Below, piece after piece: positions 13,369 through 64,000 of a stretch of DNA of 64,000 nt (position 1 is the stretch's first letter; each line of letters begins with the position of its first letter). The stretch comes from an uncultured Bacillales bacterium. GTDB lineage: Bacteria; Bacillota_I; Bacilli_A; RF39; UBA660. Under the pieces are notes generated by a model, which was given only the letters and a program-made list of their open reading frames with translations, was not told the DNA's origin and made no database searches. The translations under genes were made by a program, and so were the position numbers. The stretch lies in the NCBI GenBank assembly GCA_946539445.1, contig CAMNHK010000005.1:1025-65024 (forward strand), written 5' to 3'.

Positions 13369-14070
13369 ATGAAATCTTTAAAAAAAATACCGAGACAAAC
13401 AAAAATGATTATACGAGGGGTTCTTGTTTTCTTACTTTTTTGGTTTAGTTCCCTATTTCAGTATATTCCTATTTCTTTTTTTCATTGGGATACGAAAACC
13501 TTAACTCCTCAACAAATTGTTTTATTATCTGTGTTTTCTAGTTTAATCATTACTTTTATTTTATTCTTTGTTTATCGAAGGGAATTAAAAAAGGAATTTC
13601 TTATTTATAAAAAGAATTTCGCTGAAAACTTTGATATCGGTTTTAAGTATTGGATGATTGGTTTTCTTATTATGATGGTTTCCAATGCTATTTTAGTTTT
13701 TCTTTTGAAAGCAGGAAGTGCTGGTAATCAACAAATTGTTCAAAAGATGGTCGATGCTCTTCCTTGGCTTATGTTAATTGATACCGCTATTATTGCTCCT
13801 TTTAATGAAGAAATTGTTTTCCGTAAAACTATTAAAGATGCTGTCTCTTCTAAATGGTTATTTGTTGCGATATCCTTTGTTTTATTTGGAGGAGCTCATG
13901 TGATTAGTACGGCATCTAGTTTTTTAGATTACCTTTACATTATTCCTTATGGAGCCTTAGGTGGTGCTTTTGCTCTTGCCTATTGGGATACGGATAGCGT
14001 ATTCACTTCTATGGTTATGCATATGATTCATAATTCTGTTTTAACCATTGGTATGATTTTTTTCTTATAA
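13369..14070 (+). CDS. CPBP (CAAX/Abi) family intramembrane metalloprotease
   Basis: Polytopic. Motif 1 NEEIVFRK, motif FGGAH, motif HMIHN. Confidence 0.8.
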   Translation: MKSLKKIPRQTKMIIRGVLVFLLFWFSSLFQYIPISFFHWDTKTLTPQQIVLLSVFSSLIITFILFFVYRRELKKEFLIYKKNFAENFDIGFKYWMIGFLIMMVSNAILVFLLKAGSAGNQQIVQKMVDALPWLMLIDTAIIAPFNEEIVFRKTIKDAVSSKWLFVAISFVLFGGAHVISTASSFLDYLYIIPYGALGGAFALAYWDTDSVFTSMVMHMIHNSVLTIGMIFFL

Positions 14071-14215: not shown

Positions 14216-14944
14216 ATGGATTTAACTTCTAAATTTACATTGAATACTAGTAATTATACGAACACTTTAAAAATGAATGATGTTATCAGTGGAAATGTTC
14301 CTCATACTGAAAATGTTTTGTATGTTCCAGGAATTGATAAAGCCGCTTTTATGGCAGCTTTAAAGGCATTAAAAGAAAATGTTTCTGCTACTGTAGAAAC
14401 AACAGATGAAATGATTCATACCATTGATAATGGTCTTGCAGAAACGAATTCGAATCGTTTTTATCGAAATGGCGATGCGGTAAAACAAGTAACCAATATG
14501 AATACTTTATCAAGCGATATGAAAGGTTTGATGGAATTATTCGGACAAATCAGTGAGGACCGTATTGCTGCTGCCATTGATTCTTATAATTCTTCTTTAG
14601 GAGCATTAAAGAGAACTACTAGAAAAGAACTATTAGAAGATGCTGCACAAGAAGCAAATGGACAAAAATGTAAAAAGACTGAAACATCTCGTGCATTTTA
14701 TCCAAATGATGGAGCTAACCATTCATACTATAATGAAGAAAAAAATGGGACTACTAAGGTTGTAACGAAACGTTATAAATCTGGCGTTGTTAGTTCCGAT
14801 GGAAAAATTGAATATATTACCAAAGTAGAAACATATACATGGATTCAATGTAGTGATAATGTATCAATTACAGAACATCGTTTCCGTGAAGTTGGCATTG
14901 ATTTGCCATATAGTCCTAGTAAAATTGTGGATATTGATTTATAG
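14216..14944 (+). CDS. Uncharacterised protein, family A copy 1 (paralog of 16740..17462), WXG100-locus associated
   Basis: RBS GGAAAGGAG lies 10 nt before the ATG at 14216; the track GTG at 14195 is probably spurious. Shares VLY-x-P-x-IDK, NSNRFYR, YN-x-x-L-x-x-LKR-x-TRK-x-L-x-x-AAQ-x-x-NG and a C-terminal LPY...IVD with copy 2. Confidence 0.7.
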   Translation: MDLTSKFTLNTSNYTNTLKMNDVISGNVPHTENVLYVPGIDKAAFMAALKALKENVSATVETTDEMIHTIDNGLAETNSNRFYRNGDAVKQVTNMNTLSSDMKGLMELFGQISEDRIAAAIDSYNSSLGALKRTTRKELLEDAAQEANGQKCKKTETSRAFYPNDGANHSYYNEEKNGTTKVVTKRYKSGVVSSDGKIEYITKVETYTWIQCSDNVSITEHRFREVGIDLPYSPSKIVDIDL

Positions 14945-14955
14945 GAGGCGTATTT

Positions 14956-15849
14956 ATGAGTGAACTAAAAAAATATGATGATAATTTCTTATCAGAATCT
15001 ATTTCTAATTCTTCTACCATAGGAAGTAATGCAGATTCTATTTCGAGTGATATTCAACATTTCTTACATTCTGTTGATCCAAGGGTTTTGGGCTATTTTG
15101 ATGCAGATGTTACTACTAAACTTAATCAATACTCTACTACTATGGAAAACGATTCCGATAATATGCAGCATTTTGGGCAATGGTTAAATGATACTTATGA
15201 TGATTATGTTCAAACGGTTACTAAGGTAAAGGAAATTGCTAATTCTATGGACTTTAATAAAGTGGATAGTACTATTAATGGAGTTCATGGAACGGAAGGA
15301 AAACCAAAAGAAGAGGAAGAAAAGAAAGAGGAAGAAGAAGTACTAGTTCTTACTCCAGAGGAAGAGGAAGAAAGAAAAAGAAAAGGCCTTATTGGAAGAA
15401 GAGGTTCCGATGGTGGAGAACAAAATGCATTTGCTGAAGGCGGAAATGGTTCAATCGGTGGACTACAAAACAATGCCGCTTCCATTTCTCGTGGTAGTGG
15501 AAATAATACAGGAAGCTATGCAAGTTTAGTTGGACTTGGAGTTGCCAGTGTATTAGAAGGTGTTGGAGCTTTAGTAGAAGAAGCCAAAGAAAAGAAGGAA
15601 GCTCAAGAAAGAATGGCTGATGAAACACTAGTAGAGGAAGAAAAGAAATCTTCTAATGATAAAGATGACAGCAAAGAGAAAGAGGAGAAAAATGATAATG
15701 TTCTTCTAGGTATGGGAATTGGTCTTGCTGCGGCAGCTGCTGCCGGTAAATTCGTTTTATCCGATGATGATAAGGATGAAGATGAAGAAAAAGCAATTCA
15801 AAAATATATGCCACAAGATTTTTCTAACTCCGATGAAAACAAAGCGTAA
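14956..15849 (+). CDS. Uncharacterised protein, family B copy 1 (paralog of 17505..19076): helical N-domain, KE-rich linkers, two Gly/Ala-zipper helices, acidic tail
   Basis: RBS TAGGAGG before the ATG. N-terminus is homologous to B2 (SI-x-NS...D-x-RVL-x-Y...DNM-x-x-FG-x-WL). Hydrophobic G/A segments YASLVGLGVASVLEGVGALV (15517..15576) and VLLGMGIGLAAAAAAGKFVL (15697..15759), then SDDDKDEDEE.... Confidence 0.7.
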   Translation: MSELKKYDDNFLSESISNSSTIGSNADSISSDIQHFLHSVDPRVLGYFDADVTTKLNQYSTTMENDSDNMQHFGQWLNDTYDDYVQTVTKVKEIANSMDFNKVDSTINGVHGTEGKPKEEEEKKEEEEVLVLTPEEEEERKRKGLIGRRGSDGGEQNAFAEGGNGSIGGLQNNAASISRGSGNNTGSYASLVGLGVASVLEGVGALVEEAKEKKEAQERMADETLVEEEKKSSNDKDDSKEKEEKNDNVLLGMGIGLAAAAAAGKFVLSDDDKDEDEEKAIQKYMPQDFSNSDENKA

Positions 15850-15853
15850 AAGA

Positions 15854-15880
15854 AATGTGTAAATCACATTCTTTTTTTTT
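15854..15880 (+). terminator. Rho-independent terminator after family B1 gene
   Basis: AATGTG-TAAAT-CACATT hairpin followed by C+T9. Confidence 0.55.
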
Positions 15881-15894
15881 GTCAAAATTTGACA
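15880..15894. promoter_or_regulatory. Perfect 15-nt palindrome TGTCAAA-A-TTTGACA (candidate operator)
   Basis: Read directly from the sequence, between the B1 terminator and the WXG100 genes. Confidence 0.3.
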
Positions 15895-16005
15895 AAAACT
15901 GTTTTTTTATTTACTCCCCTTTTCTACCTATGATATGATTATATTGTAACAGGGTAAGGTTACTTGCATATGTTATATGTATTATTTGAAAGGTGGTGTA
16001 AAAAT

Positions 16006-16290
16006 ATGGTAAGACAAGATAGTGGTGAATTAAGATCTATCGCTGCTGAAATTGATGAAAAAGGAACTGAATTCTTAAATGCTAAAACTGCAATGTTTGA
16101 TGAGATGGAAGCAAAATTAAAAGCATCTGAGGATACTGGAGCTGCTTGGTATGGTCCTAAAGCTGCAGCTTTCTTAGCTGAATTTAAGGCAAAAGAAGAT
16201 GACTTTACTAACGCTTATAACAATATCGTTCAAATGGCTGAGAACCTAAAAGCTCAAGCTGAAGCTTGGGAAAACTTCGAAAACGTTTAA
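16006..16290 (+). CDS. WXG100 family (ESAT-6/EsxA-like) protein
   Basis: 94 aa from the ATG at 16006 (RBS AAAGGTGG). Helix-turn-helix layout with a central W-Y-G motif (TGAAWYGPKAAAFLAEF). Confidence 0.8.
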   Translation: MVRQDSGELRSIAAEIDEKGTEFLNAKTAMFDEMEAKLKASEDTGAAWYGPKAAAFLAEFKAKEDDFTNAYNNIVQMAENLKAQAEAWENFENV

Positions 16291-16337
16291 TTCTGATATT
16301 ATATCAGTCGTATTTCAATTATAGGAGGTGAATACTT

Positions 16338-16649
16338 ATGGCAGTTCAATCAGGAATGAACTACGGAGAAGTAGATAACTTAGTTAAATTTTTAGATAAT
16401 AAAAAAGAAGAAATTATTGCTGTATTTGAAGAACTTCAAACAAGTACTCCAAGTAGAATCGCAGCTGCTTATGATGGTAATGCAGCAGAAGCTTATAAAC
16501 AAACTTTAGCTGCACAATCTAAAAAAATGAGTGAAACAATCGATACTATGATTGCTTCTTTAAAACAAGAGACTGCACAACAACAAGCTGATTATCAAGC
16601 TCAAGATCAAAGAATGCAAAACTCTATTGAAGCAGCTAGAGGAAATTAG
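16338..16649 (+). CDS. WXG100-like protein with degenerate motif (Y-D-G)
   Basis: 103 aa, RBS TAGGAGGTG. IAAAYDGNAAEAYKQTL and the Q-rich C-helix (QADYQAQDQRMQNSI) parallel firmicute EsxA (IAANWEGQAF...QEQDQQLS). Confidence 0.65.
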   Translation: MAVQSGMNYGEVDNLVKFLDNKKEEIIAVFEELQTSTPSRIAAAYDGNAAEAYKQTLAAQSKKMSETIDTMIASLKQETAQQQADYQAQDQRMQNSIEAARGN

Positions 16650-16658
16650 TTTTTTAAG

Positions 16659-16723
16659 GAATTACGTTTGTAATTTCTTATTAGTGCGGATTAAGTTTTT
16701 TAGTCCCTACTAATAAGAAATTA
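16659..16723 (+). promoter_or_regulatory. Two mutually exclusive RNA hairpins between the WXG100 pair and family A2
   Basis: Hairpin 1: 16659..16666 pairs with 16671..16678 (8 bp, GTTT loop). Hairpin 2: perfect 14-bp stem AATTTCTTATTAGT (16673..16686) with ACTAATAAGAAATT (16710..16723), 23-nt loop. The arms overlap at 16673..16678. Confidence 0.45.
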
Positions 16724-16739
16724 ATAAGGAGGGATTTAA

Positions 16740-17462
16740 ATGGCAGTTGTTGCGGATTCTGGGGTAGCAGGAGGAACTTTATGTACGATGGAGAGTGTTT
16801 TAAACGAAAGTTGCCCTATGGTAGCTGGAGTTTTGTATACTCCTAAAATTGACAAAGGAGCTGTTATTGGTTCTATCAGTACTTTAAAGCAAGATATTGA
16901 TTCAAATCGTTCTTCTGCAGAAGCATTAATATCGGATATTAATGGTGTTTTATCGGCTAGTAATTCTAACCGCTTTTATCGTGGAACTACTGCTACTACT
17001 CAACTTGCTACTTTAGATGATATTACCAATGATATTACTACTTTATTAGGAGTTTTATCCAATATCGATGTTTCTAAAATAGGAAATGCAGTTGATCGAT
17101 ATAATGCCAAACTTGCTAAATTAAAACGAGATACTAGAAAGAAATTAGCTTATGAGGCGGCTCAAGCTATTAATGGAAAAGTTATCAGTTCTGAATATCT
17201 TTCTACTAGTTGTGATTTGTATTGGACTCCTCCTGAACGAATAGAGCATTGCGGTGATAAAATTCATGCTTATCATTATTATAATTATGTTATGACTGAT
17301 AAAAATGATGACTATGCTTTAGCCGATTATAGTTATACAAAAGACTATATTGTTGCTATTCAATATACTAGATTTAGTATACTAGACTTAGAAGCTGCTA
17401 TTACATCTGTCGGTGGTAGTTTGCCTTACAATGTAGGCGCTATCGTTGATTACGAAGAATAA
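16740..17462 (+). CDS. Uncharacterised protein, family A copy 2 (paralog of 14216..14944)
   Basis: RBS AAGGAGGG. Motif sharing as listed for copy 1. Confidence 0.7.
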   Translation: MAVVADSGVAGGTLCTMESVLNESCPMVAGVLYTPKIDKGAVIGSISTLKQDIDSNRSSAEALISDINGVLSASNSNRFYRGTTATTQLATLDDITNDITTLLGVLSNIDVSKIGNAVDRYNAKLAKLKRDTRKKLAYEAAQAINGKVISSEYLSTSCDLYWTPPERIEHCGDKIHAYHYYNYVMTDKNDDYALADYSYTKDYIVAIQYTRFSILDLEAAITSVGGSLPYNVGAIVDYEE

Positions 17463-17504
17463 AGTGATATTATTTTTTAAATAGATAAAAAAGGAGGACT
17501 CCTA

Positions 17505-19076
17505 ATGGATCAAGGATTAGTTACTTATGATTTAGCGGGAATTGATCAAAGTATTACCAATTCTGCTAGTGTCAGAGATTATATGGAAAGTATTTCCGGT
17601 AATATTTCTACCTTTTTAGGTTCTTGTGATAATCGTGTATTATCCTATTATAGTGGTGATTTTACTTCTGCCCTACGTGGTTGCAAGAGTTCTTTTAATA
17701 ATGACTATGACAACATGGATTTATTTGGAAAGTGGCTAGCTGAACAAAATTCAGATTTAAATGTTACGAACCAAAATGTCAATGGAATTGCTAATTCTAT
17801 TAATCCTGAAACTATTAATAGTGAGATTGGGACGGTTGCTACTTCTCCTAAAGATGCTTCTTCTCTTGATTTAAGTTGTGTAGTTGGAACTCTTGGAGAT
17901 GTTCCAACGAATCCAGCAGATGTGGCTGCCTTAGGATTACATTTTATAAACCCGGAGGCTTTTCAAGCATTACCATCTGAAGTGCAAGATGCTGTAAAAG
18001 CCGCTCTTAAAAATGTAGGATATGATGATAATACAATTGCTGATATCGTGGGAGGAAAAATTGGAATTAAGGCTTGTGTCTTAGATACTGTTTCTGATAC
18101 CTTAGAAAGTGTTTTATCGGAACATCCTGACCTTCGCAAGACTGTTATTGATTTGTATGGATTTGATCCTTTCGATGACGAAGGACACGTTAACGATGAT
18201 TTATTAACCGCTATTTTACTAATTGATGCTAAAGACCCTAATGATCAATATGATATTATTAAACTATTGCATGATCAATATGGTGTGGATATTGTGGATC
18301 CTGTTCAGTTATCTACTTTAACTGGTCAGTTAGAAAGTGTTATTTCTGCTCATCCGGATATCCGAGCTATGTTATTACAAAAATATGGATTTGATATTTT
18401 TAATGCGGATGGAACTATTAACAAGAGTCGTTTAGCTATCGCTATGATTATGGATAAAGCTAGTGGTGAGGACAGTTTTGATTTATTAGCTTTCTTAAAA
18501 GCTTATAATGCCAATTCTTTAGCAGGAATTCAAAACCATCTTATCAATCCTACGATTCAAACTACTACTGGAACATCTGATATTTCTTCAAATGTTTTAA
18601 CAAACGTAGGAGCTGGTTTAGGAAACCGTTCAAAAGCTACCAGTTTAGGGGGAACTCTTCTTGGTGCTACTCATAATGTTTCATCTAACTCTACCCTTTC
18701 AGAAGAGCAACAAAAACAATTATTCCAAAACTATGTTGAAAGGGTTCAACCTACTGCCGCTAATAGTGAAGCTAAGAGACAAAACACAGCTGCTATTGCC
18801 TTAGGACTTGGTAGTCTGGGAGCTCTTGGTGTTACTGGTGGTGGAATTGCTGCTAACAAGAAGGAAAAAGAAGAGAAAGAAGAAAAAGAAGAAGTAATTA
18901 CCAAAGAGGAATTTGATTTGTTCCGTACAGGAGACGGTATTGAAAATAAAGAAGATAGTAAAAAAGACTGGTTGTATGGTCTTGGTATTGGACTAGCTGC
19001 TGCCGCTGGAGTTGGAAAAGCTCTCAGTGATGATGAAGAGGATGACGAGCAAGAATCGGATGCCTTTCAATTATAA
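17505..19076 (+). CDS. Uncharacterised protein, family B copy 2: B-type N-domain, internal tandem repeat, two Gly/Ala-zipper helices, acidic tail
   Basis: RBS AAAGGAGG. N-terminus homologous to B1. Repeats at about aa 196-268 and 271-340. G/A helices at 18786..18854 and 18969..19022. Tail SDDEEDDEQESDAFQL. Confidence 0.7.
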   Translation: MDQGLVTYDLAGIDQSITNSASVRDYMESISGNISTFLGSCDNRVLSYYSGDFTSALRGCKSSFNNDYDNMDLFGKWLAEQNSDLNVTNQNVNGIANSINPETINSEIGTVATSPKDASSLDLSCVVGTLGDVPTNPADVAALGLHFINPEAFQALPSEVQDAVKAALKNVGYDDNTIADIVGGKIGIKACVLDTVSDTLESVLSEHPDLRKTVIDLYGFDPFDDEGHVNDDLLTAILLIDAKDPNDQYDIIKLLHDQYGVDIVDPVQLSTLTGQLESVISAHPDIRAMLLQKYGFDIFNADGTINKSRLAIAMIMDKASGEDSFDLLAFLKAYNANSLAGIQNHLINPTIQTTTGTSDISSNVLTNVGAGLGNRSKATSLGGTLLGATHNVSSNSTLSEEQQKQLFQNYVERVQPTAANSEAKRQNTAAIALGLGSLGALGVTGGGIAANKKEKEEKEEKEEVITKEEFDLFRTGDGIENKEDSKKDWLYGLGIGLAAAAGVGKALSDDEEDDEQESDAFQL

Positions 19077-19077
19077 T

Positions 19078-19108
19078 AAAAAAAGCACTCATTATTAGTG
19101 CTTTTTCT
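19078..19108. terminator. Bidirectional terminator shared by convergent genes
   Basis: A-run, AGCACT-7 nt-AGTGCT, T-run. Overlaps the stop of the 19095..20000 gene. Confidence 0.7.
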
Positions 19109-46180: not shown

Positions 46181-46601
46181 CTTCCCATATTATTTTAAAA
46201 ATTTTTATTAATTGTATATTATTTTTATGAATGGATATTTCTATCATATCCTGTATTTTATAGTCGGTTGATTTCTTTAAATGAATCCATAATTCTCGAT
46301 ATTCTTGATTCTTTTTTGTGACAATTTTACCTCTATCCTCTTCGATTTCAAAAGGTATTTTTTTGTTCTTTATATATAAATTTTTGTTTTGTTGAAATAA
46401 CTTTGCTTCTTCTTGATTCACAATAATTGCTGCTAAGTCCTTTCTAACTATTACTCCTCCTATTTTTTGAAATGTTTCGATTTTTATTTGAGTTAATAAA
46501 AAAATAGTAACTCCTTGTGATAGGATTAGTATTATAGCTAATAGTTGAATGAGGGATTGTCTTTCATAATTTCTAATTTTCATATACTCTCCCGTTGGCA
46601 A
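46173..46601 (-). CDS. Small single-TM protein, candidate minimal bacteriocin-export accessory factor
   Basis: N-terminal TM helix (LIQLLAIILILSQGVTIFLL) followed by a ~100-aa beta-rich domain. Sits between the C39-ABC exporter and the peptides, where an HlyD/LcnD-type protein usually lies, but is far shorter. Confidence 0.35.
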   Translation of the reverse strand: MPTGEYMKIRNYERQSLIQLLAIILILSQGVTIFLLTQIKIETFQKIGGVIVRKDLAAIIVNQEEAKLFQQNKNLYIKNKKIPFEIEEDRGKIVTKKNQEYRELWIHLKKSTDYKIQDMIEISIHKNNIQLIKIFKIIWEGD

Positions 46602-48645
46602 TTTTTATGGTTCGATCAAATAAAAACTGATTATTAAAGCGATGAGATATCACTATGATGGTCTTATCCGATAAATAGTTAAATATATTCTTTAGTATTT
46701 TCTTTTCCTTTGAAATGTCGATTCCTGTTAGTGCTTCATCTAAAATATAGATGTTACTTTTTTTGATGATACTTCTTGCGAGAATAATTCGTTGTCTTTC
46801 TCCATGACTATAATTAAAACCATTTTCTTCTATTACCATATCATACCCTGTGATTCCTTTTTTTAGTAGTTCATCTACATAACATATTTTACATACTGTT
46901 TGAAACTCTTCCTCTGAATATTCTTTAAATAATTCTATATTGTTTCTTAACGTATCCGTAAATAAATATTCATCACTTGTGACATAGGTAATATTCGAAC
47001 GAATATTTTCTAAATGATAATGATTGATATCAATATTAGAGATGGATATTATCCCATAGTCTACTTCTATGTATCGTAAAAGCATTTTCAATAATGTACT
47101 TTTCCCAATTCCACTACTTCCTGTTAATAAAATTTTACTTCCTTTTTTTATTTCTAAATTGAGGTTACGAAATAATACTTTACTGCCAATAGTATAATTT
47201 AAGTTTTTTATTCGAATATCCCCATCTAATTGATAAGGAAGATAGAAGTAGTTGTTTTGAAAATTATCTTCTTCTATCATAAATAATTCTTCCACTCTGT
47301 CTAGAGAGATTTTATAGGAATTGTATTCTTCTATCACCGCTAGAATATGATTGAAACAAGTTGAAAAGTATGAAAAAAAGGTTTGATATACAATGAGACT
47401 ACTTAATGTTAGTTCTTCTTGAATTACATAGAATGCTCCGATTCCATAAATACATACTAATACCCAATCATTTATATTATTTTTTAGATAATAGTAGATT
47501 TCTTCCCAGGTTGTCCATTGATATACTTTTTCTAAAAAGGAGCGATAGTTTAGAGAAAATTTATCAATCATCCTTTTTTCTAAATGACTGCCTTTCATCG
47601 TATCTACATTACTTATTCCTTGGATGATATAAGAATTAATTGTATCTTCTCCTTTCACTATTTCTTGTTTTTTTTGTTTTTTTCTCTTTTGAAAAACGAT
47701 GGTTAAAATCGTGATGACTCCAAAAAGAATCATTAGAATGATGGTTAATTCTTTTTGAAAACGAAATAAGAATATGAGAAAAATACCGGCATTTAAAATA
47801 TCGGTTGAGACTACACAAAATAGATTACTAATATAAGATCGAACTCTATTCAAATCTTTGAATCTAGAAACAACCTCTCCTGTTGTCCTATTTTTATAAT
47901 ATAAATATGGAAGTAAAAGAATTTGTTTATAAGTAAGAGTGGTTGTTTCATAGTCAAAGATCATAGTCCATTTATATAGTAAAATATTTCTTACGAAAAT
48001 ATTTGAATTTTTTAAAAGATAGAAACTAATCATCATGTAACTAAGAATGATTAAATTATTTTGATTATTATTATCTATTGAATATTCAAGAATGTATTTA
48101 AAATGAAATGAGGTTATTAAATTTATAATAAAATAAGAGAATGTTAATAGAACAATTAACCATAGTAATTTATGATTTGATTGAATTAGTTTTTTACTAT
48201 TCTGATAGATAATATTTTTCTTCTTCATGATGGGAAGTTTCTTGAATGGTTTTAATAATAAGTAGTTGGAACTTGATAATAGATGAAACTCTGAAAAAGA
48301 AATTGTTTTTTTCCCTTTTGATGGATCCATAATCGTTACTTTCTTTTTTCTTTTGTGTATTTCATAAATAACGACAAAATGATGAATATTTTTATGAATT
48401 ACAATATGAGCAATACAGGGTAAGTTATTTACTTCTATGTTTTCTAGTGATCCTGTAACGCCTATCGAATCCAAACCTATTCTTTTTGCTCCTTCCATTA
48501 AATTATAGAAGGAGGTACCTTCTTTTGTAGTATGGGTTATTTCTCTTAAAAATTCTTTCGATACTTCTCCTCCATAAAATCGAATAATTGATAAAAGACA
48601 ACAAATACCACAATCTTTTATTCCATCCTGTAGGACAATTTTCAC
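46573..48645 (-). CDS. Bacteriocin-processing ABC transporter with N-terminal C39 peptidase domain
   Basis: C39 motifs (QDGIKDCGICCL, HHFVVIYEI), 6-TM domain, Walker A GSSGIGKST, signature SHGERQR, Walker B IYILDEAL. GTG start with RBS AGGAGGTG. Confidence 0.85.
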   Translation of the reverse strand: MKIVLQDGIKDCGICCLLSIIRFYGGEVSKEFLREITHTTKEGTSFYNLMEGAKRIGLDSIGVTGSLENIEVNNLPCIAHIVIHKNIHHFVVIYEIHKRKKKVTIMDPSKGKKTISFSEFHLLSSSNYLLLKPFKKLPIMKKKNIIYQNSKKLIQSNHKLLWLIVLLTFSYFIINLITSFHFKYILEYSIDNNNQNNLIILSYMMISFYLLKNSNIFVRNILLYKWTMIFDYETTTLTYKQILLLPYLYYKNRTTGEVVSRFKDLNRVRSYISNLFCVVSTDILNAGIFLIFLFRFQKELTIILMILFGVITILTIVFQKRKKQKKQEIVKGEDTINSYIIQGISNVDTMKGSHLEKRMIDKFSLNYRSFLEKVYQWTTWEEIYYYLKNNINDWVLVCIYGIGAFYVIQEELTLSSLIVYQTFFSYFSTCFNHILAVIEEYNSYKISLDRVEELFMIEEDNFQNNYFYLPYQLDGDIRIKNLNYTIGSKVLFRNLNLEIKKGSKILLTGSSGIGKSTLLKMLLRYIEVDYGIISISNIDINHYHLENIRSNITYVTSDEYLFTDTLRNNIELFKEYSEEEFQTVCKICYVDELLKKGITGYDMVIEENGFNYSHGERQRIILARSIIKKSNIYILDEALTGIDISKEKKILKNIFNYLSDKTIIVISHRFNNQFLFDRTIKIANGRVYEN

Positions 48646-61075: not shown

Positions 61076-61104
61076 ATTATATCTTATTGTTCCTTATTTT
61101 TCAA
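61076..61104 (-). promoter_or_regulatory. Near-consensus sigma-A promoter driving the T-box leader
   Basis: Minus strand: TTGAAA (61104..61099), 17 nt, TATAAT (61081..61076). The -35 element lies within the 3' end of the DUF4176 gene. Confidence 0.65.
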
Positions 61105-61375
61105 TACTTTTATGATTTCTTATTTTTAAATTTTCTAAAAATTCTCTTTCTTCATAATTCATAAATCCTTGAAAGATTACTTCTTTTATTTCAGAATGAT
61201 TAAAAACACAAATGGTATCGGAGCGAATGGTTCCTTCTGGATACATACATCCGCAGTAATCAAATATGTGGTCTGGATACTCTGGTGTACTGACGGAATA
61301 TCCTGTAATCATTAATTTCTTTTTTCCACTATTTAATATTACAATACTACCTAATGGTAAATAATTATTTGTCAT
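61094..61375 (-). CDS. DUF4176 family protein (T7SS-locus-associated small protein)
   Basis: MTNNYLPLGSIVILNSGKKKLMITGY...FDYCGCMYPEGTIRSD...FNHSEIKEVIFQGF matches the DUF4176 pattern as I recall it. The ATG at 61375, with RBS GAGGAGGAA, overlaps the upstream gene's end. Confidence 0.7.
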   Translation of the reverse strand: MTNNYLPLGSIVILNSGKKKLMITGYSVSTPEYPDHIFDYCGCMYPEGTIRSDTICVFNHSEIKEVIFQGFMNYEEREFLENLKIRNHKSIEK

Positions 61376-62534
61376 CGTCTGATTCCTCCTCGAATAAATA
61401 AGATTCTCCATAGAATTTATTTAGAACTTCTCGATCTCTCTCGGCTTGATAAGGAACTGGATCATAATCGTCTAACATAAACTCTGTATTGTTGTGATGC
61501 TCTATTGGTTGATAGTTATCTTCCTCATTCGATATAGGTTCCTTATAATCTTCTAATTTGAAATTCTTTTTGGATTTTTGCTCGCTAGCTACTACAGCAG
61601 CAATGGATCCAGCAATGCCGGCGGCTCCAATCCCAATTCCAATCGGAACGGTATTTATGTCATTAGACGTTTCCGTTGGAGTCTCTGGGGTTGGGATAAC
61701 AGTCGTTTGTGTTTCATTATTTCCATAATTATTTAATTCTCTTAAAACTTTATTTCCTATTTCTCCCAATCTCTTTTTTGTTTCTTCTACTTTTATAAAT
61801 GATTCGGTTGCGGATTCTTCATATTGATTTTGGATGGTTGCTAGTCTAGTAGCCTCTTCTCTTGTGACTCCATATTTTGTTTGATATTCTTCCCGAATTA
61901 GATTTATATTGTTTTGCTCTTTGGCAAAATTCGAAGAAGCTAAACTGGTTACAGAAGCCCCTGTTCTTTCTTGTCTCCAAATAGCCATATCTTGATTTAC
62001 TTTGTTCATTTTTTCCAATTCATCTAGTTGTGGATATTTTTTTTCTAATTCTTCTGCCCATTCCTCTAATGAATGATAATTATCTGGGTAATCGGTTAAA
62101 TTATTATTGATCATATAGTTTTGAATGGTATCATCTATATTTTCTCGATAAGTATCTACACTTTGAGATATTTGAATTTCCCCACTAGGTAAGACTACTT
62201 CTTTCTTAGGAGAATATAGTTTCATAATACTTTTCAAATCTTCTTTTCCTAGAGAATCCGTACTATAATCCCGTATTGTTTTTGTAAGAGATTCTTCCAA
62301 TTCTAATACTTTTCTTTCTACTGAGTCCAACAAACTAAATATAGAATCCATAGAGTCTTTATAATCATTTAAACAGTTGTTGTGTTCAAAGTTGATATCT
62401 TTTATTACGCTTTCTATCTCTAAAAAGATTCCTGATAGGTCTCTTGTTTCTAAGCATCCTTCGATAGAGGATAAGGTTTCGATGGAGGTGGTTAAGCGAT
62501 CTACATCGATACAACAAGTATATCCATTAGCCAT
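61365..62534 (-). CDS. Uncharacterised protein: helical N-domain, Gly-zipper TM helix (61584..61649), acidic C-tail
   Basis: 389 aa. VPIGIGIGAAGIAGSIAAVVA followed by a 70-aa D/E/Y-rich tail. Same end architecture as family B proteins and the partial ORF at 63485..64000. Confidence 0.65.
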   Translation of the reverse strand: MANGYTCCIDVDRLTTSIETLSSIEGCLETRDLSGIFLEIESVIKDINFEHNNCLNDYKDSMDSIFSLLDSVERKVLELEESLTKTIRDYSTDSLGKEDLKSIMKLYSPKKEVVLPSGEIQISQSVDTYRENIDDTIQNYMINNNLTDYPDNYHSLEEWAEELEKKYPQLDELEKMNKVNQDMAIWRQERTGASVTSLASSNFAKEQNNINLIREEYQTKYGVTREEATRLATIQNQYEESATESFIKVEETKKRLGEIGNKVLRELNNYGNNETQTTVIPTPETPTETSNDINTVPIGIGIGAAGIAGSIAAVVASEQKSKKNFKLEDYKEPISNEEDNYQPIEHHNNTEFMLDDYDPVPYQAERDREVLNKFYGESYLFEEESDDDK

Positions 62535-62545
62535 ATTATCCCCTC

Positions 62546-63058
62546 CTATATTGAACGAATCGCATCTAAGCGTTCTTTTAACTTATTAATGCGATTATTG
62601 GTATCATCAATAATATCATCCAAACGTAATTGTTGAACATTTTTTATATTTCCATTTTGATTCATTTTATCTCGTAGTAATAAGGTATTATTTAAAATTT
62701 TTTCTTCTTCTAATATTTTGGAACCTAAGGCTTCCATCAACTGTTCTTTCTCTATTTGTTTTTGAATGGTGGAATCCTTTATTATTTTTTTCTTTAATGA
62801 ATCATATTCTCTTTGAATTGCTTCAATTTCTTCTAATATTTCTTTTGCTTTCTCATGCGCAGGAGATGTTCCCATAATATTTAAAGAAAGAGTATCTAGT
62901 CCTCCATAAAACATTTCTTGTTTGATTCCTTCGGCTATTACGGAATTCATATAGGTATGATACGTTTGAAATTGATCTTCTATTTTTTCCACTACTTTCG
63001 TTGGATTTATAAGATCATTTCCTTCTGTTTTCCATGTTATCCAATCTACTTTCGGCAT
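62546..63058 (-). CDS. Helical (coiled-coil) protein, unknown function, first gene of a three-gene unit
   Basis: 170 aa from the ATG at 63058 (RBS TAGGAG). Heptad-rich C-terminal half. Confidence 0.5.
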   Translation of the reverse strand: MPKVDWITWKTEGNDLINPTKVVEKIEDQFQTYHTYMNSVIAEGIKQEMFYGGLDTLSLNIMGTSPAHEKAKEILEEIEAIQREYDSLKKKIIKDSTIQKQIEKEQLMEALGSKILEEEKILNNTLLLRDKMNQNGNIKNVQQLRLDDIIDDTNNRINKLKERLDAIRSI

Positions 63059-63087
63059 ATTTACCAACTCCTACTATTCTATAGTAT

Positions 63088-63116
63088 ATTATATCTTTTT
63101 TTTTTAGAGAAAGCAA
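63088..63116 (-). promoter_or_regulatory. Sigma-A promoter inside the DUF4176 locus
   Basis: Minus strand: TTGCTT (63116..63111), 17 nt, TATAAT (63093..63088). Confidence 0.6.
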
Positions 63117-63120
63117 ACGA

Positions 63121-63150
63121 TAAAAAAAGAAGGTTATTTCTAACCTTCTT
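63121..63150 (-). terminator. Terminator after the upstream DUF4176 gene
   Basis: Minus strand: AGAAGGTTA-GAAA-TAACCTTCT (9 bp) followed by T7. Overlaps the stop codon. Confidence 0.7.
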
Positions 63151-63466
63151 GTTGTTGTCTTAATTCAGCTAATCCACCATTTAATACTTTAGAAATCTCT
63201 TTTTGATTATCGGTTTCATAACCCTTAAAGCAAACTTTATCAATTCTATCGTGATTAAAAGCAAATACTTGATCACTTGTAATCATACCTTCTGGATAGA
63301 AGCAAGCTCCATAGTCAAATATTTGACCATCGATTTCAACTTTTCCGTTTTTGTCATAAACTTCTCCCGTTGGCATAATGCAATAACTTGTAATCATTAA
63401 TTCTCTTTTACCACCTTTTAATAATACTACTGTACCGATAGGTAAAAATTTGTCATCCATTTCCAT
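63140..63466 (-). CDS. DUF4176 family protein, second copy
   Basis: FLPIGTVVLLKGGKRELMITSY...FDYGACFYPEGMITSDQVFAFNHDRIDKVCFKGY. RBS AAGGGAGGAA. Confidence 0.7.
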   Translation of the reverse strand: MEMDDKFLPIGTVVLLKGGKRELMITSYCIMPTGEVYDKNGKVEIDGQIFDYGACFYPEGMITSDQVFAFNHDRIDKVCFKGYETDNQKEISKVLNGGLAELRQQQEG

Positions 63467-63484
63467 TCTAATTCCTCCCTTTTA

Positions 63485-64000
63485 TTATAAATCGGTTAAT
63501 TCGTCGTTGCCTCTAGCAACGTAACCATCATTTTCAATTGCTTGATAACTGAAATCGTCTTCATCTTCTAAATAGTTTTCTTTATCAGCTTCTGATGTAT
63601 CTTCATAAGAGAATTCCATATCGTTTTCTTCGTCTCCGTCCCACTCTTCTGTGTAGATATCATCATCTCCACCATTATCACTATTCTTCTTACGATCTAT
63701 GTATGCTTTAGCTCCTATTCCGGCAGCTGCTGCAGCACTTAATCCGGCTGCAATTGGAATTACTGCGCTACCTCCACTTCTACTTGTTGGAGAAAGTGGG
63801 GTTGAAGATGTAGGAACTTTTGAATATTTATTTCCTTTAATAATATCATCAATTGATGTGGTTGAACCATCCACTAAATCTGCTAAATCAACATCATCAT
63901 ATGGTGAACTTGGTGTATATCCTTCACCACTATATCCGCCACCACCATGGTTGTTATTAGTTGGTGATTCTGGATTAACTCCTGGATTAAATGGTGTTGT
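63485..64000 (-). CDS. C-terminal part of a larger protein (continues past window end): Gly/Ala-zipper TM helix (63701..63766) plus acidic tail
   Basis: The frame stays open from 64000 (…TTPFNPGVNPESPTNNNHGGGGYSGEGYTPSSPYDDVDLADLVDG…). The track 'M' at 63874 is an internal GTG. VIPIAAGLSAAAAAGIGAKAYI is followed by a D/E-rich tail. Confidence 0.6.
   Translation of the reverse strand, partial: TTPFNPGVNPESPTNNNHGGGGYSGEGYTPSSPYDDVDLADLVDGSTTSIDDIIKGNKYSKVPTSSTPLSPTSRSGGSAVIPIAAGLSAAAAAGIGAKAYIDRKKNSDNGGDDDIYTEEWDGDEENDMEFSYEDTSEADKENYLEDEDDFSYQAIENDGYVARGNDELTDL

What the first reader, a model, noticed from the sequence alone, without database searches (positions are those of the whole stretch)
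14216..19076. WXG100 gene pair sandwiched between two paralogous copies of an uncharacterised two-gene module, with no type VII machinery in sight
The layout on the + strand is A1-B1 | terminator | esx-like, esx-like | hairpin | A2-B2 | terminator. The two ~100-aa proteins have the WXG100 helix-turn-helix signature (AAWYGPKAAAF and a degenerate AAAYDGNAAEAY). These are the hallmark substrates and co-factors of type VII secretion. They are flanked on both sides by diverged duplicates of the same gene pair. Family A (242 and 240 aa) shares VLY-x-P-x-IDK, NSNRFYR, LKR-x-TRK...AAQ-x-x-NG and a terminal LPY...IVD. Family B (297 and 523 aa) shares an ~100-aa N-domain (DNM-x-x-FG-x-WL). I do not recognise either family as EsaA, EssA, EssB, EssC, EsaB, LXG, Lap or any known T7SSb component. 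No FtsK/SpoIIIE-type ATPase lies within 64 kb. The duplication with divergence, variable middle regions and WXG100 linkage look like a polymorphic effector or effector-chaperone cassette. It could equally be an unrecognised secretion or anchoring accessory system.
Basis: partly seen in the sequence, partly recalled or inferred. Interest (0 to 1): 0.85.

Follow-up and report, generated by a model that had tools for sequence, protein, structure and literature searches.

The report
Type VII secretion substrate operon, duplicated
An uncultured low-GC gut bacterium carries a conserved four-gene operon, made of two divergent ESAT-6-like (WXG100) proteins and two protein families with no known relatives, of which the last two genes have been duplicated; it is most likely cargo for a type VII secretion system encoded elsewhere in the genome.

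Summary
The six genes exist as described. A1/A2 (30% identity, E 2e-26) and B1/B2 (N-domain 38%, E 2e-17) are true paralogs.

The layout is not a WXG pair sandwiched between two modules. The ancestral unit is a four-gene operon, E1-E2-A-B. It is intact and in the same order in about 20 loci from uncultured 'Mollicutes/Bacilli' gut and rumen MAGs. The window's species has an extra upstream A-B copy.

E1 and E2 fall below Pfam/NCBIfam cutoffs themselves, but their families are WXG100: 22 of 25 E2 relatives and 6 of 16 E1 relatives hit PF06013. Both keep the bipartite WxG + ΦxxxD/E export motif. In one related MAG their homologs sit directly after EssC and a YukD-like gene.

A and B match nothing in Pfam, NCBIfam, PDB, PHROGs or PADLOC. 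A is a three-helix plus small β-sheet protein with no fold match. B has a WXG-like N-terminal hairpin, a new helical repeat and Gly/Ala-rich hydrophobic segments.

No EssC lies in the window. Two DUF4176 (T7SSb toxin chaperone) genes lie at 61-63.5 kb.

A 23-bp RNA hairpin between E2 and A is conserved, with covariation, in all 10 loci aligned.

The module is conserved, syntenic and has no recognisable immunity gene, so a polymorphic-toxin cassette is not supported. Verdict: T7SSb substrate operon with new cargo families. EssC in the same genome remains untested.

The parts
14216..14944 (+). A1: family-A paralog (242 aa), extra upstream copy
   Evidence: ORF. 30% identical to A2, E 2e-26. 57.6% identical to the equivalent upstream copy in L008/L009. 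No Pfam or NCBIfam family.
14956..15849 (+). B1: short family-B paralog (297 aa). It has the WXG-like N-domain, an E/K-rich low-complexity middle, two Gly/Ala-rich hydrophobic segments (189-207, 249-267) and an acidic tail. It lacks the helical repeat.
15850..15898 (+). Terminator-like hairpin with a U9 run after B1, followed by the palindrome TTGTCAAAATTTGACAA (15879-15895)
   Evidence: Sequence. Fold -13.1 kcal/mol, z -2.57. A near-identical palindrome is shared with L008 only.
15910..15969 (+). Promoter of the E1-E2-A2-B2 operon (TTTACT-18-TG-TATGAT, 15910-15939) and a conserved leader element (15944-15969, TTGTAACAGGGTAAGGTTACTTGCAT)
   Evidence: Promoter scan. Promoter and leader blocks are conserved upstream of E1 in 9 loci.
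16006..16290 (+). E1: divergent WXG100 protein (94 aa). It has W48-x-G50 and a C-terminal W88-x-x-F91-E92.
   Evidence: TIGR03930 19.9 bits, E 6e-4; PF06013 15.6 bits. In 16 family members W48, G50, W88 and F91 are invariant, and 6 of 16 hit PF06013. 33% identical to the EssC-linked L016 homolog, E 9e-13.
16338..16649 (+). E2: divergent WXG100 partner (103 aa). It has Y45-x-G47 and Y86-x-x-x-D90.
   Evidence: TIGR03930 25.2 bits, E 1.4e-5. 22 of 25 family members hit PF06013. G47 and Y86 are invariant. Top PDB profile hits are ESAT-6-like and EsxA proteins. The L016 homolog scores 37.0 bits against a cutoff of 27.3.
16671..16723 (+). Conserved 23-bp RNA hairpin between E2 and A2. There is no U-tract, and the RBS follows within about 6 nt.
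   Evidence: -25.9 kcal/mol, z -4.9. Present in all 10 aligned species-level loci, including EssC-linked L016; 6 pairs show compensatory changes. The exact 13-mer occurs once per locus in 16 loci and a close variant in 9 of 10 later loci. No Rfam family.
16740..17462 (+). A2: family-A protein (240 aa). Three long helices (39-73, 83-107, 111-144) with an RFYxG turn, then a 4-strand sheet plus a helix, then a C-terminal LPY...IVD.
   Evidence: AF2 pLDDT 85.6, pTM 0.76. No PDB or BFVD fold match, best E 0.14 and 0.058. 79 cluster representatives among 1.84e9 proteins.
17505..19076 (+). B2: family-B protein (523 aa). N-terminal helical hairpin (10-40, 53-98), disordered linker, two copies of a new helical repeat (~197-262 and ~269-335), Gly/Ala-rich hydrophobic segments (430-448, 490-508) and an acidic tail.
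   Evidence: AF2 model. The N-hairpin superposes on HP0062, EsxA and EsxB structures with TMt 0.5-0.8, but E > 1. Internal repeat 37% identical, E 2e-17. Hydropathy. 222 homologs.
19080..19106 (.). Bidirectional intrinsic terminator shared with the convergent DUF3419 methyltransferase-like gene
61094..64000 (-). Associated context, not part of the operon. A second substrate-like cluster: a partial PT-rich protein with a C-terminal hydrophobic anchor and acidic tail (63485-64000+), DUF4176 (63140-63466), a 173-aa coiled-coil protein (62546-63067), a 389-aa protein with a helical N-terminus and the same C-terminal architecture as B (61365-62534), and DUF4176 (61094-61411).

Best explanation
The region is a type VIIb secretion (T7SSb) substrate operon whose machinery is encoded elsewhere.

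E1 and E2 are a divergent EsxA/EsxB-like WXG100 pair. Each carries the bipartite export signal: an aromatic-x-Gly turn plus a C-terminal Φ-x-x-x-D/E.

A and B are the conserved co-transcribed cargo. B has a WXG/LXG-like N-terminal helical hairpin that would serve as the targeting domain. It also has a lineage-specific helical repeat and Gly/Ala-rich hydrophobic segments that would put it in or on a membrane. A is a B-specific partner, either a chaperone or a co-targeting factor. Its first two helices also meet in an aromatic-x-Gly turn.

The conserved hairpin after E2 probably sets a higher E1/E2 to A/B expression ratio. It lies where S. aureus esxA has its terminator.

In the lineage of the window's species and L008/L009, the A-B pair was duplicated upstream with its own terminator, and B1 lost the repeat domain.

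Shown: gene content, paralogy, operon conservation, WXG100 family membership, export motifs, EssC linkage of homologs in one relative, and DUF4176 genes in the window. Inferred: export by EssC, A-B interaction, membrane targeting of B, and the role of the hairpin.
For: 1. Family-level WXG100 membership. 22 of 25 E2 relatives and 6 of 16 E1 relatives hit PF06013. 12 of 36 E2 homologs carry a precomputed PF06013 hit and JGI names some 'YukE'. The top PDB profile hits of E2 are ESAT-6-like and EsxA proteins.

2. Export motifs. S. intermedius EsxA has W43, G45 and D87 (PMC13355648). E1 has W48, G50 and E92. E2 has Y45, G47 and D90. The spacing is the same, and these residues are invariant or nearly so across the families.

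3. EssC linkage. In L016 the order is EssC (1532 aa, FHA + FtsK_SpoIIIE), a YukD-like 83-aa gene, the E1 homolog, the E2 homolog, a 92-aa gene, a 761-aa effector-like gene, a 231-aa gene and DUF4176.

4. DUF4176, a T7SSb toxin chaperone family (PMC12478183). Two copies lie in the window and one lies 3 kb upstream of the cassette in L013/L018.

5. Operon conservation. E1-E2-A-B is intact and in the same order in about 20 loci across three chromosomal contexts.

6. The N-domain of B is a helical hairpin like Esx proteins. It aligns weakly with the N-terminus of the L016 761-aa protein (p 0.0035) and with the E2 turn.

7. None of the six proteins has an N-terminal hydrophobic segment.

8. S. aureus esxA has a hairpin 14 bp after its stop codon and is transcribed separately (PMC3313859).
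Against: - No EssC, EssB, EsaA or YukD gene lies in the 64-kb window, or within 10 kb of the cassette in at least 11 other loci with full flanks. I could not check whole genomes.
- The window's own E1 and E2 are below the curated cutoffs.
- The homology of A and B to WXG/LXG domains rests on weak profile alignments (p 0.003-0.03) and a generic hairpin fold (Foldseek E > 1).
- In L007- and L018-type B proteins the same repeat domain lies on both sides of the hydrophobic segment. That is awkward for a simple transmembrane anchor.
- The B2 model is poor overall (pLDDT 57).
Confidence: 0.55

Rival explanations
1. B is an antibacterial, membrane-permeabilising T7SS toxin of the TelE/TspA type, acting through its Gly/Ala-rich zipper-like segments. 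A is its neutralising partner or immunity protein. The duplication reflects diversification under interbacterial conflict. This is essentially the first reader's polymorphic-effector idea.
For: B1 and B2 each have two small-residue-rich hydrophobic segments. These resemble the C-terminal glycine zipper needed for TelE toxicity (PMC10434224). TelE is kept soluble by a multi-protein complex that includes binders of its N-terminal, central and C-terminal parts (10.64898/2026.03.12.711312). The middle of B varies in length and repeat number between lineages. A-B pairs have been duplicated.
Against: - No membrane or DUF5085-type immunity gene follows B in any locus. The downstream genes are housekeeping or convergent.
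- A is soluble, encoded upstream and conserved end to end, unlike immunity proteins.
- The cassette is single-copy, syntenic and vertically inherited among core genes rather than in variable islands.
- The hydrophobic segments are mostly GxxG or small-xxx-small, not strict GxxxGxxxG.
- No toxin domain was detected.
Confidence: 0.2
2. The four proteins form an EssC-independent complex. On this view WXG100-like helical hairpins have been co-opted for a cytoplasmic or membrane-proximal envelope function in this reduced-genome lineage, and B is tail-anchored with its bulk in the cytoplasm.
For: The cassette always sits among housekeeping genes and never within 10 kb of EssC when A-B are present. 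It is conserved like a core gene set. B ends in hydrophobic segments followed by charged tails, like tail-anchored proteins. The repeat domain lies on both sides of the hydrophobic segment in some B proteins.
Against: The export-motif residues of E1 and E2 are strictly conserved. That is hard to explain without an exporter. E1/E2 homologs are EssC-adjacent in L016. DUF4176 chaperones are described as found throughout T7SSb-containing bacteria (PMC12478183), and they occur in the same window.
Confidence: 0.15
3. E1 and E2 are not the core EsxA of the system. They are Lap-like targeting factors dedicated to B, forming with the B N-domain (and A) a multipartite secretion signal like LapA3-LapA4-TelA(LXG). 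This sub-hypothesis is compatible with T7SS export.
For: E1-E2 sit immediately upstream of A-B in every locus. This mirrors the lap1-lap2-LXG gene order (PMC10801868). EsxA itself does not bind LXG complexes (PMC13355648), so dedicated small partners are the rule.
Against: E1 and E2 match WXG100, not the Lap families; there are no DUF3130, TIGR04197, DUF3958 or DUF5082 hits. In L016 they occupy the position next to EssC and YukD, with a different 92-aa protein directly before the large effector. The extra A1-B1 pair has no small partners of its own.
Confidence: 0.25

Closest known systems
EsxA/EsxB-type WXG100 pairs of T7SS (PF06013, TIGR03930; e.g. S. aureus EsxA 2VRZ, M. tuberculosis ESAT-6/CFP-10 3FAV)
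   Same: About 100 aa with a helix-turn-helix. An aromatic-x-Gly motif sits at the turn and a C-terminal Φxxx(D/E) at the same spacing. The genes form a tandem pair. A hairpin follows the gene(s). Homologs lie next to EssC in L016.
   Different: The window's copies score below the curated cutoffs. E2 has Y instead of W. The pair is unlinked from EssC and fixed in an operon with two unknown families.
LXG toxin / Lap1-Lap2 targeting complexes of T7SSb (TelA-LapA3-LapA4; PMC10801868)
   Same: Two small helical proteins are encoded just upstream of a large protein whose N-terminus is a long helical hairpin. A disordered middle region follows.
   Different: B has no LXG (PF04740) hit. There is no C-terminal toxin domain and no immunity gene. 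An additional 240-aa partner (A) has no counterpart. The module is conserved rather than polymorphic.
TelE (S. gallolyticus) and TspA (S. aureus) membrane-active T7SSb effectors
   Same: A helical N-terminal targeting domain plus a C-terminal small-residue or glycine-rich hydrophobic segment. Several co-expressed partner proteins are needed to keep the effector soluble.
   Different: No immunity protein (TipE/DUF5085 or a polytopic membrane protein). B has acidic tails after the hydrophobic segments and a unique helical repeat. There is no sequence similarity.
DUF4176 (Ltc) toxin-specific chaperones
   Same: A small partner encoded next to a T7SS substrate that has a disordered middle region. 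Two real DUF4176 genes serve other substrate-like genes in this window.
   Different: A is not DUF4176. It has a different fold (three helices plus a β-sheet), is encoded upstream and is twice the size.

Membership tests
WXG100 (PF06013 / TIGR03930) | Profile score at or above the curated cutoff | tested here: inconclusive
   The window's E1 scores 15.6 bits on PF06013 (cutoff 27.3) and 19.9 on TIGR03930 (cutoff 44.85). E2 scores 25.2 on TIGR03930, E 1.4e-5, with no PF06013 hit. At family level 22 of 25 E2 relatives and 6 of 16 E1 relatives hit PF06013 at E <= 0.01. The L016 E2 homolog passes the cutoff with 37.0 bits.
WXG100 (PF06013 / TIGR03930) | About 100 aa, with W-x-G at the central turn | tested here: met
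   E1 is 94 aa; W48 and G50 are invariant in 16 sequences. E2 is 103 aa with Y45-x-G47; G47 is invariant and Y45 is at least 90% conserved in 25 sequences. E2 therefore has a W-to-Y variant.
WXG100 (PF06013 / TIGR03930) | C-terminal Φxxx(D/E) half of the bipartite export signal (PMC13355648) | tested here: met
   E1 has W88-x-x-x-E92, with W88 and F91 invariant and E/D92 in all 16 sequences. E2 has Y86-x-x-x-D90, with Y86 invariant and D/E at +4 in 24 of 25 sequences. The spacing to the turn is 44-45 residues, as in S. intermedius EsxA (W43 to D87).
WXG100 (PF06013 / TIGR03930) | Genomic linkage to an EssC/FtsK-SpoIIIE ATPase | tested here: inconclusive
   Not met in the window or in at least 11 related loci with 10-kb flanks. 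Met for the E1/E2 homologs in L016. Whole genomes could not be scanned.
WXG100 (PF06013 / TIGR03930) | EssC-dependent secretion | not testable with these tools
   Needs an experiment.
LXG polymorphic toxins (PF04740) | N-terminal LXG domain detectable by profile | tested here: not met
   No PF04740 hit for B1, B2, A1 or A2 at E <= 1. The N-domain of B is a ~90-aa helical hairpin resembling Esx structures only at fold level (Foldseek E > 1, TMt 0.5-0.8).
LXG polymorphic toxins (PF04740) | Variable C-terminal toxin domain followed by a cognate immunity gene | tested here: not met
   No toxin domain. The genes after B are convergent or housekeeping in every context.
Lap1/Lap2 targeting factors (DUF3130/TIGR04197, DUF3958, DUF5082) | Profile match | tested here: not met
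   None of these families was reported for E1, E2, A1 or A2.
DUF4176 / Ltc chaperones (PF13780) | Profile match | tested here: not met
   A1 and A2 have no hit. The true DUF4176 genes are at 61094-61411 and 63140-63466.
TelE/TspA-like glycine-zipper membrane toxins | GxxxGxxxG-type hydrophobic C-terminal segment | tested here: inconclusive
   B2 430-448 (AIALGLGSLGALGVTGGGI) and 490-508 (LYGLGIGLAAAAGVGKALS), and B1 189-207 and 249-267, are Gly/Ala-rich. The spacing is mostly GxxG or small-xxx-small rather than the strict motif.
TelE/TspA-like glycine-zipper membrane toxins | Adjacent immunity protein; toxicity on expression | tested here: not met
   No immunity candidate is conserved next to B. 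Toxicity is not testable here.
T7SSb core machinery (EssC, EssB, EsaA, EssA, EsaB/YukD) | Presence in the window | tested here: not met
   tblastn with L016 EssC and its YukD-like protein finds nothing in the window. Pfam scans of 10 window ORFs, including 7 of the 11 of 400 aa or more, show no FtsK_SpoIIIE or YukC domain.

The most novel reading that the evidence does not exclude
B1, B2, the 389-aa protein and the PT-rich protein at 61-64 kb may form a class of proteins exported N-terminus-first by a T7SS and then held at the cell surface by a C-terminal hydrophobic anchor with a charged tail. In that case this reduced-genome gut Bacilli lineage would use type VII secretion as a surface-display route rather than only for toxins. 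Family A would be a new kind of substrate chaperone, and the conserved E2-A hairpin a dedicated RNA regulator of T7SS cargo expression. An alternative is that the four-gene cassette works without any EssC.
Probability: 0.18. Interest if true: 0.75.

Novelty: new variant of a known kind. Interest (0 to 1): 0.55.

Why it matters
T7SSb biology rests almost entirely on Staphylococcus, Bacillus, Streptococcus and Listeria, where the cargo is dominated by polymorphic LXG toxins with immunity genes. This case differs: an uncultured, low-GC gut and rumen lineage (annotated Mollicutes, Bacilli or Bacillales MAGs) keeps a fixed, vertically inherited operon.

In that operon a WXG100 pair is tied to two protein families with no relatives in Pfam, NCBIfam or PDB. 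One of them is confidently modelled yet has no fold match.

If the operon is T7SS cargo, it adds new substrate and partner families. It also suggests a conserved, non-toxin role for type VII secretion in commensals.

It further supplies a strongly conserved, covarying RNA hairpin at the WXG100-cargo junction that has no Rfam family. Such an element could be a general handle on how T7SS substrate stoichiometry is set.

Tried and rejected
- Pfam, NCBIfam, PHROGs and PADLOC scans of all six proteins. Only sub-threshold WXG100 hits for E1 and E2; nothing for A or B. Phage and defence-system readings are rejected.
- PDB sequence-profile searches with the A and B alignments found nothing.
- Foldseek of the A model against PDB and BFVD found nothing below E 0.05.
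- Foldseek of the B2 model matched only the N-hairpin to Esx-like hairpins. The 145-335 repeat domain had no match.
- Pfam on A-family members with long N-terminal extensions found no informative domain.
- The search for related loci with the A alignments failed because no stretch was conserved enough.
- The genome-contig scan with B gave only 5 loci.
- I tried to see beyond the window's right end through the DUF4176 gene. The only long contig ends 950 bp further on.
- No paper in the library links T7SS to the RF39, RFN20 or Acholeplasmatales lineages.
- Rfam has no family for the E2-A hairpin.
- The hairpin is not a dispersed repeat. There is one exact copy in the window, and near matches are at chance level.
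- The CPBP/Rce1-like gene upstream of A1 is unlikely to be an immunity gene. It is adjacent only in the window's lineage, not in the other contexts.
- L021 looked like a second downstream A-B duplication. Its extra genes are not A/B homologs by tblastn or Pfam.

Full report
**Observation.** A1 and A2 are 30% identical over 235 residues (E 2e-26). B1 and B2 share a 107-residue N-domain (38%, E 2e-17) and a C-terminal hydrophobic segment (E 8e-5). E1 and E2 are not detectably similar to each other by BLAST.

A hairpin followed by nine U's sits directly after B1 (15850-15880). A 23-bp hairpin lies between E2 and A2 (16671-16723; -25.9 kcal/mol, z -4.9). A bidirectional terminator follows B2 (19080-19106).

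The surrounding genes are housekeeping: smc, pnp, rpsO and a CPBP protease upstream; a DUF3419 methyltransferase-like gene, rbfA, infB, nusA and polC downstream. Base composition shows no island signature.

**What the unit really is.** The exact locus occurs on 12 metagenome contigs. Relatives were recovered by protein searches, a genome scan, a metagenome scan and look-ups of encoding contigs.

In every locus that carries A or B, the order is E1-E2-A-B on one strand with short gaps. These are about 20 loci, from MAGs named 'uncultured Mollicutes bacterium UMGS532', 'uncultured Bacilli bacterium', 'Bacillales bacterium UBA3789', rumen hRUG889 and others.

The cassette occupies three different chromosomal settings, all among core genes:
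- between a gltD-like pair and a tilS-like gene (L007, L010, L011, L013, L018, L020);
- between rluB and a ferredoxin/polC region (L033, L034);
- between rpsO/CPBP and DUF3419/rbfA (the window and L008/L009).

Only this last group has the additional upstream A-B pair. A1 is much closer to the L008 upstream copy (57.6%) than to A2 (30%). The duplication therefore predates the split of those species. The 'sandwich' is thus a four-gene operon plus a tandem duplicate of its last two genes. A promoter with an extended -10 and a conserved leader lie upstream of E1 in nine loci, including the window, where they follow the B1 terminator.

**E1 and E2.** The window's copies are sub-threshold. PF06013 gives 15.6 bits for E1 only. 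TIGR03930 gives 19.9 bits (E 6e-4) for E1 and 25.2 bits (E 1.4e-5) for E2, against a cutoff of 44.85.

At family level the assignment is solid:
- 12 of 36 E2 homologs have a precomputed WXG100 hit, and JGI calls some 'YukE'.
- Scanned individually, 22 of 25 E2 relatives and 6 of 16 E1 relatives hit PF06013, and no other family comes close.
- An E2 profile ranks ESAT-6-like MAB_3113, S. aureus EsxA and T. curvata EsxB first among all PDB sequences (E 0.017-0.05).

The functional motifs are present. The T7SSb export signal is bipartite: WxG at the turn plus a C-terminal ΦxxxD, which in S. intermedius EsxA are W43, G45 and D87 (PMC13355648). E1 has W48-x-G50 and W88-x-x-x-E92. E2 has Y45-x-G47 and Y86-x-x-x-D90. 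The spacing is the same, and these residues are invariant or nearly so across 16 and 25 sequences.

**Link to type VII secretion.** In locus L016 (GCA_947625215.1) the E1 homolog (33%, E 9e-13) and the E2 homolog (30%, E 1.6e-11; PF06013 37.0 bits, above cutoff) directly follow a 1532-aa EssC (FHA + FtsK_SpoIIIE) and a YukD-like 83-aa protein. They precede a 92-aa helical protein, a 761-aa effector-like protein, a 231-aa protein and DUF4176.

[quoted passage not shown] The window has two DUF4176 genes at 61094-61411 and 63140-63466 (86.5 and 84 bits). Each sits next to a signal-peptide-less protein with a helical N-terminus or a PT-rich linker. Each of those proteins ends in a Gly/Ala-rich hydrophobic segment, basic residues and an acidic tail, the same C-terminal design as B1 and B2. 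L013/L018 has a similar cluster of an LXG-like protein, DUF4176 and a coiled-coil protein 3 kb upstream of its cassette.

No EssC-like sequence is in the window (tblastn). None lies within 10 kb of the cassette in at least 11 other loci. I could not scan whole genomes. The presence of EssC in the window's organism is therefore inferred, not shown.

**Family A.** An exhaustive HMMER search of 1.84 billion representatives found only 79 clusters (58 at E <= 1e-10). Most are matched end to end, and a few have unexplained N-terminal extensions. AlphaFold2 with a 46-sequence alignment gives a confident model (pLDDT 85.6, pTM 0.76). It has three long helices (39-73, 83-107, 111-144), a four-stranded sheet (148-207) and a short helix.

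The conserved SNSNRFYRG motif forms the turn between helices 1 and 2. hhalign places it on the aromatic-x-G turn of E2 (p 0.013), which is suggestive only. Foldseek finds no match in PDB (best E 0.14) or BFVD (best E 0.058). A PDB sequence profile finds none either. A is conserved along its whole length, so it is not a polymorphic toxin.

**Family B.** There are 222 homologs. The B2 model is poor overall (pLDDT 57), but two regions are usable:
- Residues 10-98 form a helical hairpin (pLDDT about 70-76) whose turn holds DNRVLSYYSG.
- Residues 145-335 form a better-defined all-helical region (pLDDT 74-90).

The hairpin superposes on HP0062, EsxA, EsxB, CFP-10 and EsxGH structures (TMt 0.5-0.8). 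The Foldseek E-values are above 1, so this is fold-level resemblance only. It aligns weakly with the N-terminus of the EssC-linked 761-aa protein of L016, through a shared D-x-R-I-L motif (p 0.0035).

The 145-335 region is two copies of a repeat (37% identical, E 2e-17) with no match anywhere. B1 lacks it. B proteins of other lineages have three or four copies, some after the hydrophobic segment. B1 and B2 each have two Gly/Ala-rich hydrophobic stretches separated by a highly charged loop and followed by an acidic tail. None of the six proteins has an N-terminal signal-like hydrophobic segment.

**The RNA hairpin.** The stem-loop between E2 and the next gene is present in all ten species-level loci aligned. 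That includes L016, where the next gene is not A. The lower stem (AAUUUCUUAUUAGUG / UACUAAUAAGAAAUU) is nearly invariant, even though the flanking proteins are only 25-50% identical. The upper stem covaries, and 6 of the 23 pairs show compensatory changes.

The exact 13-mer TTTCTTATTAGTG occurs once per locus in 16 loci, and a close variant in 9 of 10 later loci. It is not a dispersed repeat and has no Rfam family. It has no U-tract and ends about 6 nt before the RBS of A. An upstream GAAAUUAC can pair alternatively with the 5' strand of the stem.

S. aureus esxA likewise has a 13-bp inverted repeat 14 bp after its stop codon and is transcribed separately from the downstream ess genes (PMC3313859). 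The likeliest role is therefore to uncouple WXG100 expression from cargo expression. The sequence conservation hints at a specific binding partner.

**Interpretation.** The best-supported reading (about 0.55) is a T7SSb substrate operon. It comprises a core-like WXG100 heterodimer, a cargo protein B with a WXG/LXG-like targeting hairpin and membrane-active or anchoring segments, and a dedicated partner A. The machinery lies elsewhere.

The closest mechanistic models are two:
- the LXG-Lap tripartite signal (PMC10801868);
- the multi-partner complex that keeps the glycine-zipper toxin TelE soluble.

The module fails the membership tests for LXG, Lap, DUF4176 and toxin-immunity pairs.

The polymorphic-toxin reading (about 0.2) is weakened by the lack of any immunity gene, by end-to-end conservation and by core-genome synteny. 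An EssC-independent complex (about 0.15) cannot be excluded without whole genomes. It is disfavoured by strict conservation of the export-motif residues and by the DUF4176 genes nearby. Whether E1 and E2 act as core EsxA or as B-specific Lap-like factors is open.

**Verdict.** This is a new variant of a known kind of system: known WXG100 substrates fixed in an operon with two uncharacterised families and a conserved RNA element, in a poorly studied uncultured lineage. Interest is moderate (0.55). It would rise if B proves to be a T7SS-displayed surface protein or if the cassette works without EssC.

Noticed in passing
window 61094-64000 (minus strand); L032:2-3325: A second T7SS-substrate-like cluster. 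It has two DUF4176 chaperone genes, a 173-aa coiled-coil protein and a 389-aa protein, and a partial PT-rich protein. The 389-aa and PT-rich proteins end in a Gly/Ala-rich hydrophobic segment, basic residues and an acidic tail, like B1 and B2. The only long metagenome contig ends 950 bp beyond the window, so what lies upstream is unknown.
   Followed up: partly
window 16671-16723; also L007:9088-9141, L008, L010, L012-L014, L016:10286-10365, L018, L020, L021: The E2-A intergenic hairpin is a conserved, covarying RNA element: 23 bp, 6 compensatory pairs, and a near-invariant lower stem. It has no Rfam family, occurs once per locus, and is also present in the EssC-linked locus. An upstream GAAAUUAC offers an alternative pairing.
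   Followed up: partly
window 15910-15969; alignment A9: A promoter with an extended -10, plus a short conserved leader (GCAAGGTAG...CTTGC-like stem), lies upstream of E1 in nine loci.
   Followed up: partly
window 15879-15895: A perfect palindrome, TTGTCAAAATTTGACAA, lies between the B1 terminator and the E1 promoter. A near-identical one (TTGTCAAAAAATGACAA) is present only in L008. It could be an operator or part of a compound terminator.
   Followed up: no
L016:3752-4842: In the related MAG the EssC / WXG100 / effector / DUF4176 / toxin-antitoxin block starts about 1 kb after smpB and a tmRNA-like sequence (read by eye, not confirmed with a tool). That is a classic island integration site. 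No EssB, EsaA or EssA gene is called in the locus.
   Followed up: no
L007:10001-11758, L018:11279-13378: In these B homologs, copies of the same helical repeat lie on both sides of the central Gly-rich hydrophobic segment. That does not fit a simple transmembrane anchor and remains unexplained.
   Followed up: no
window 53660-55912 (minus strand): A 750-aa protein that looks polytopic-membrane by eye, with no Pfam hit. It lies immediately downstream of relA and overlaps it by 17 nt.
   Followed up: no
window 46573-48645 (minus strand): A C39-peptidase ABC transporter (bacteriocin-type exporter). The small neighbouring ORFs were not examined.
   Followed up: no
window 13369-14070 (+): A CPBP/Rce1-like intramembrane protease gene lies directly upstream of A1 on the same strand, also in L008. 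From memory, this family often acts in bacteriocin self-immunity. It is not adjacent to the cassette in the other chromosomal contexts.
   Followed up: partly
L015:446-2164 (P0185) and P0140, P0160, P0187, P0192: Some family-A proteins carry 100-340-residue N-terminal extensions with no recognisable domain. In L015 such a protein directly follows a WXG100 gene.
   Followed up: partly
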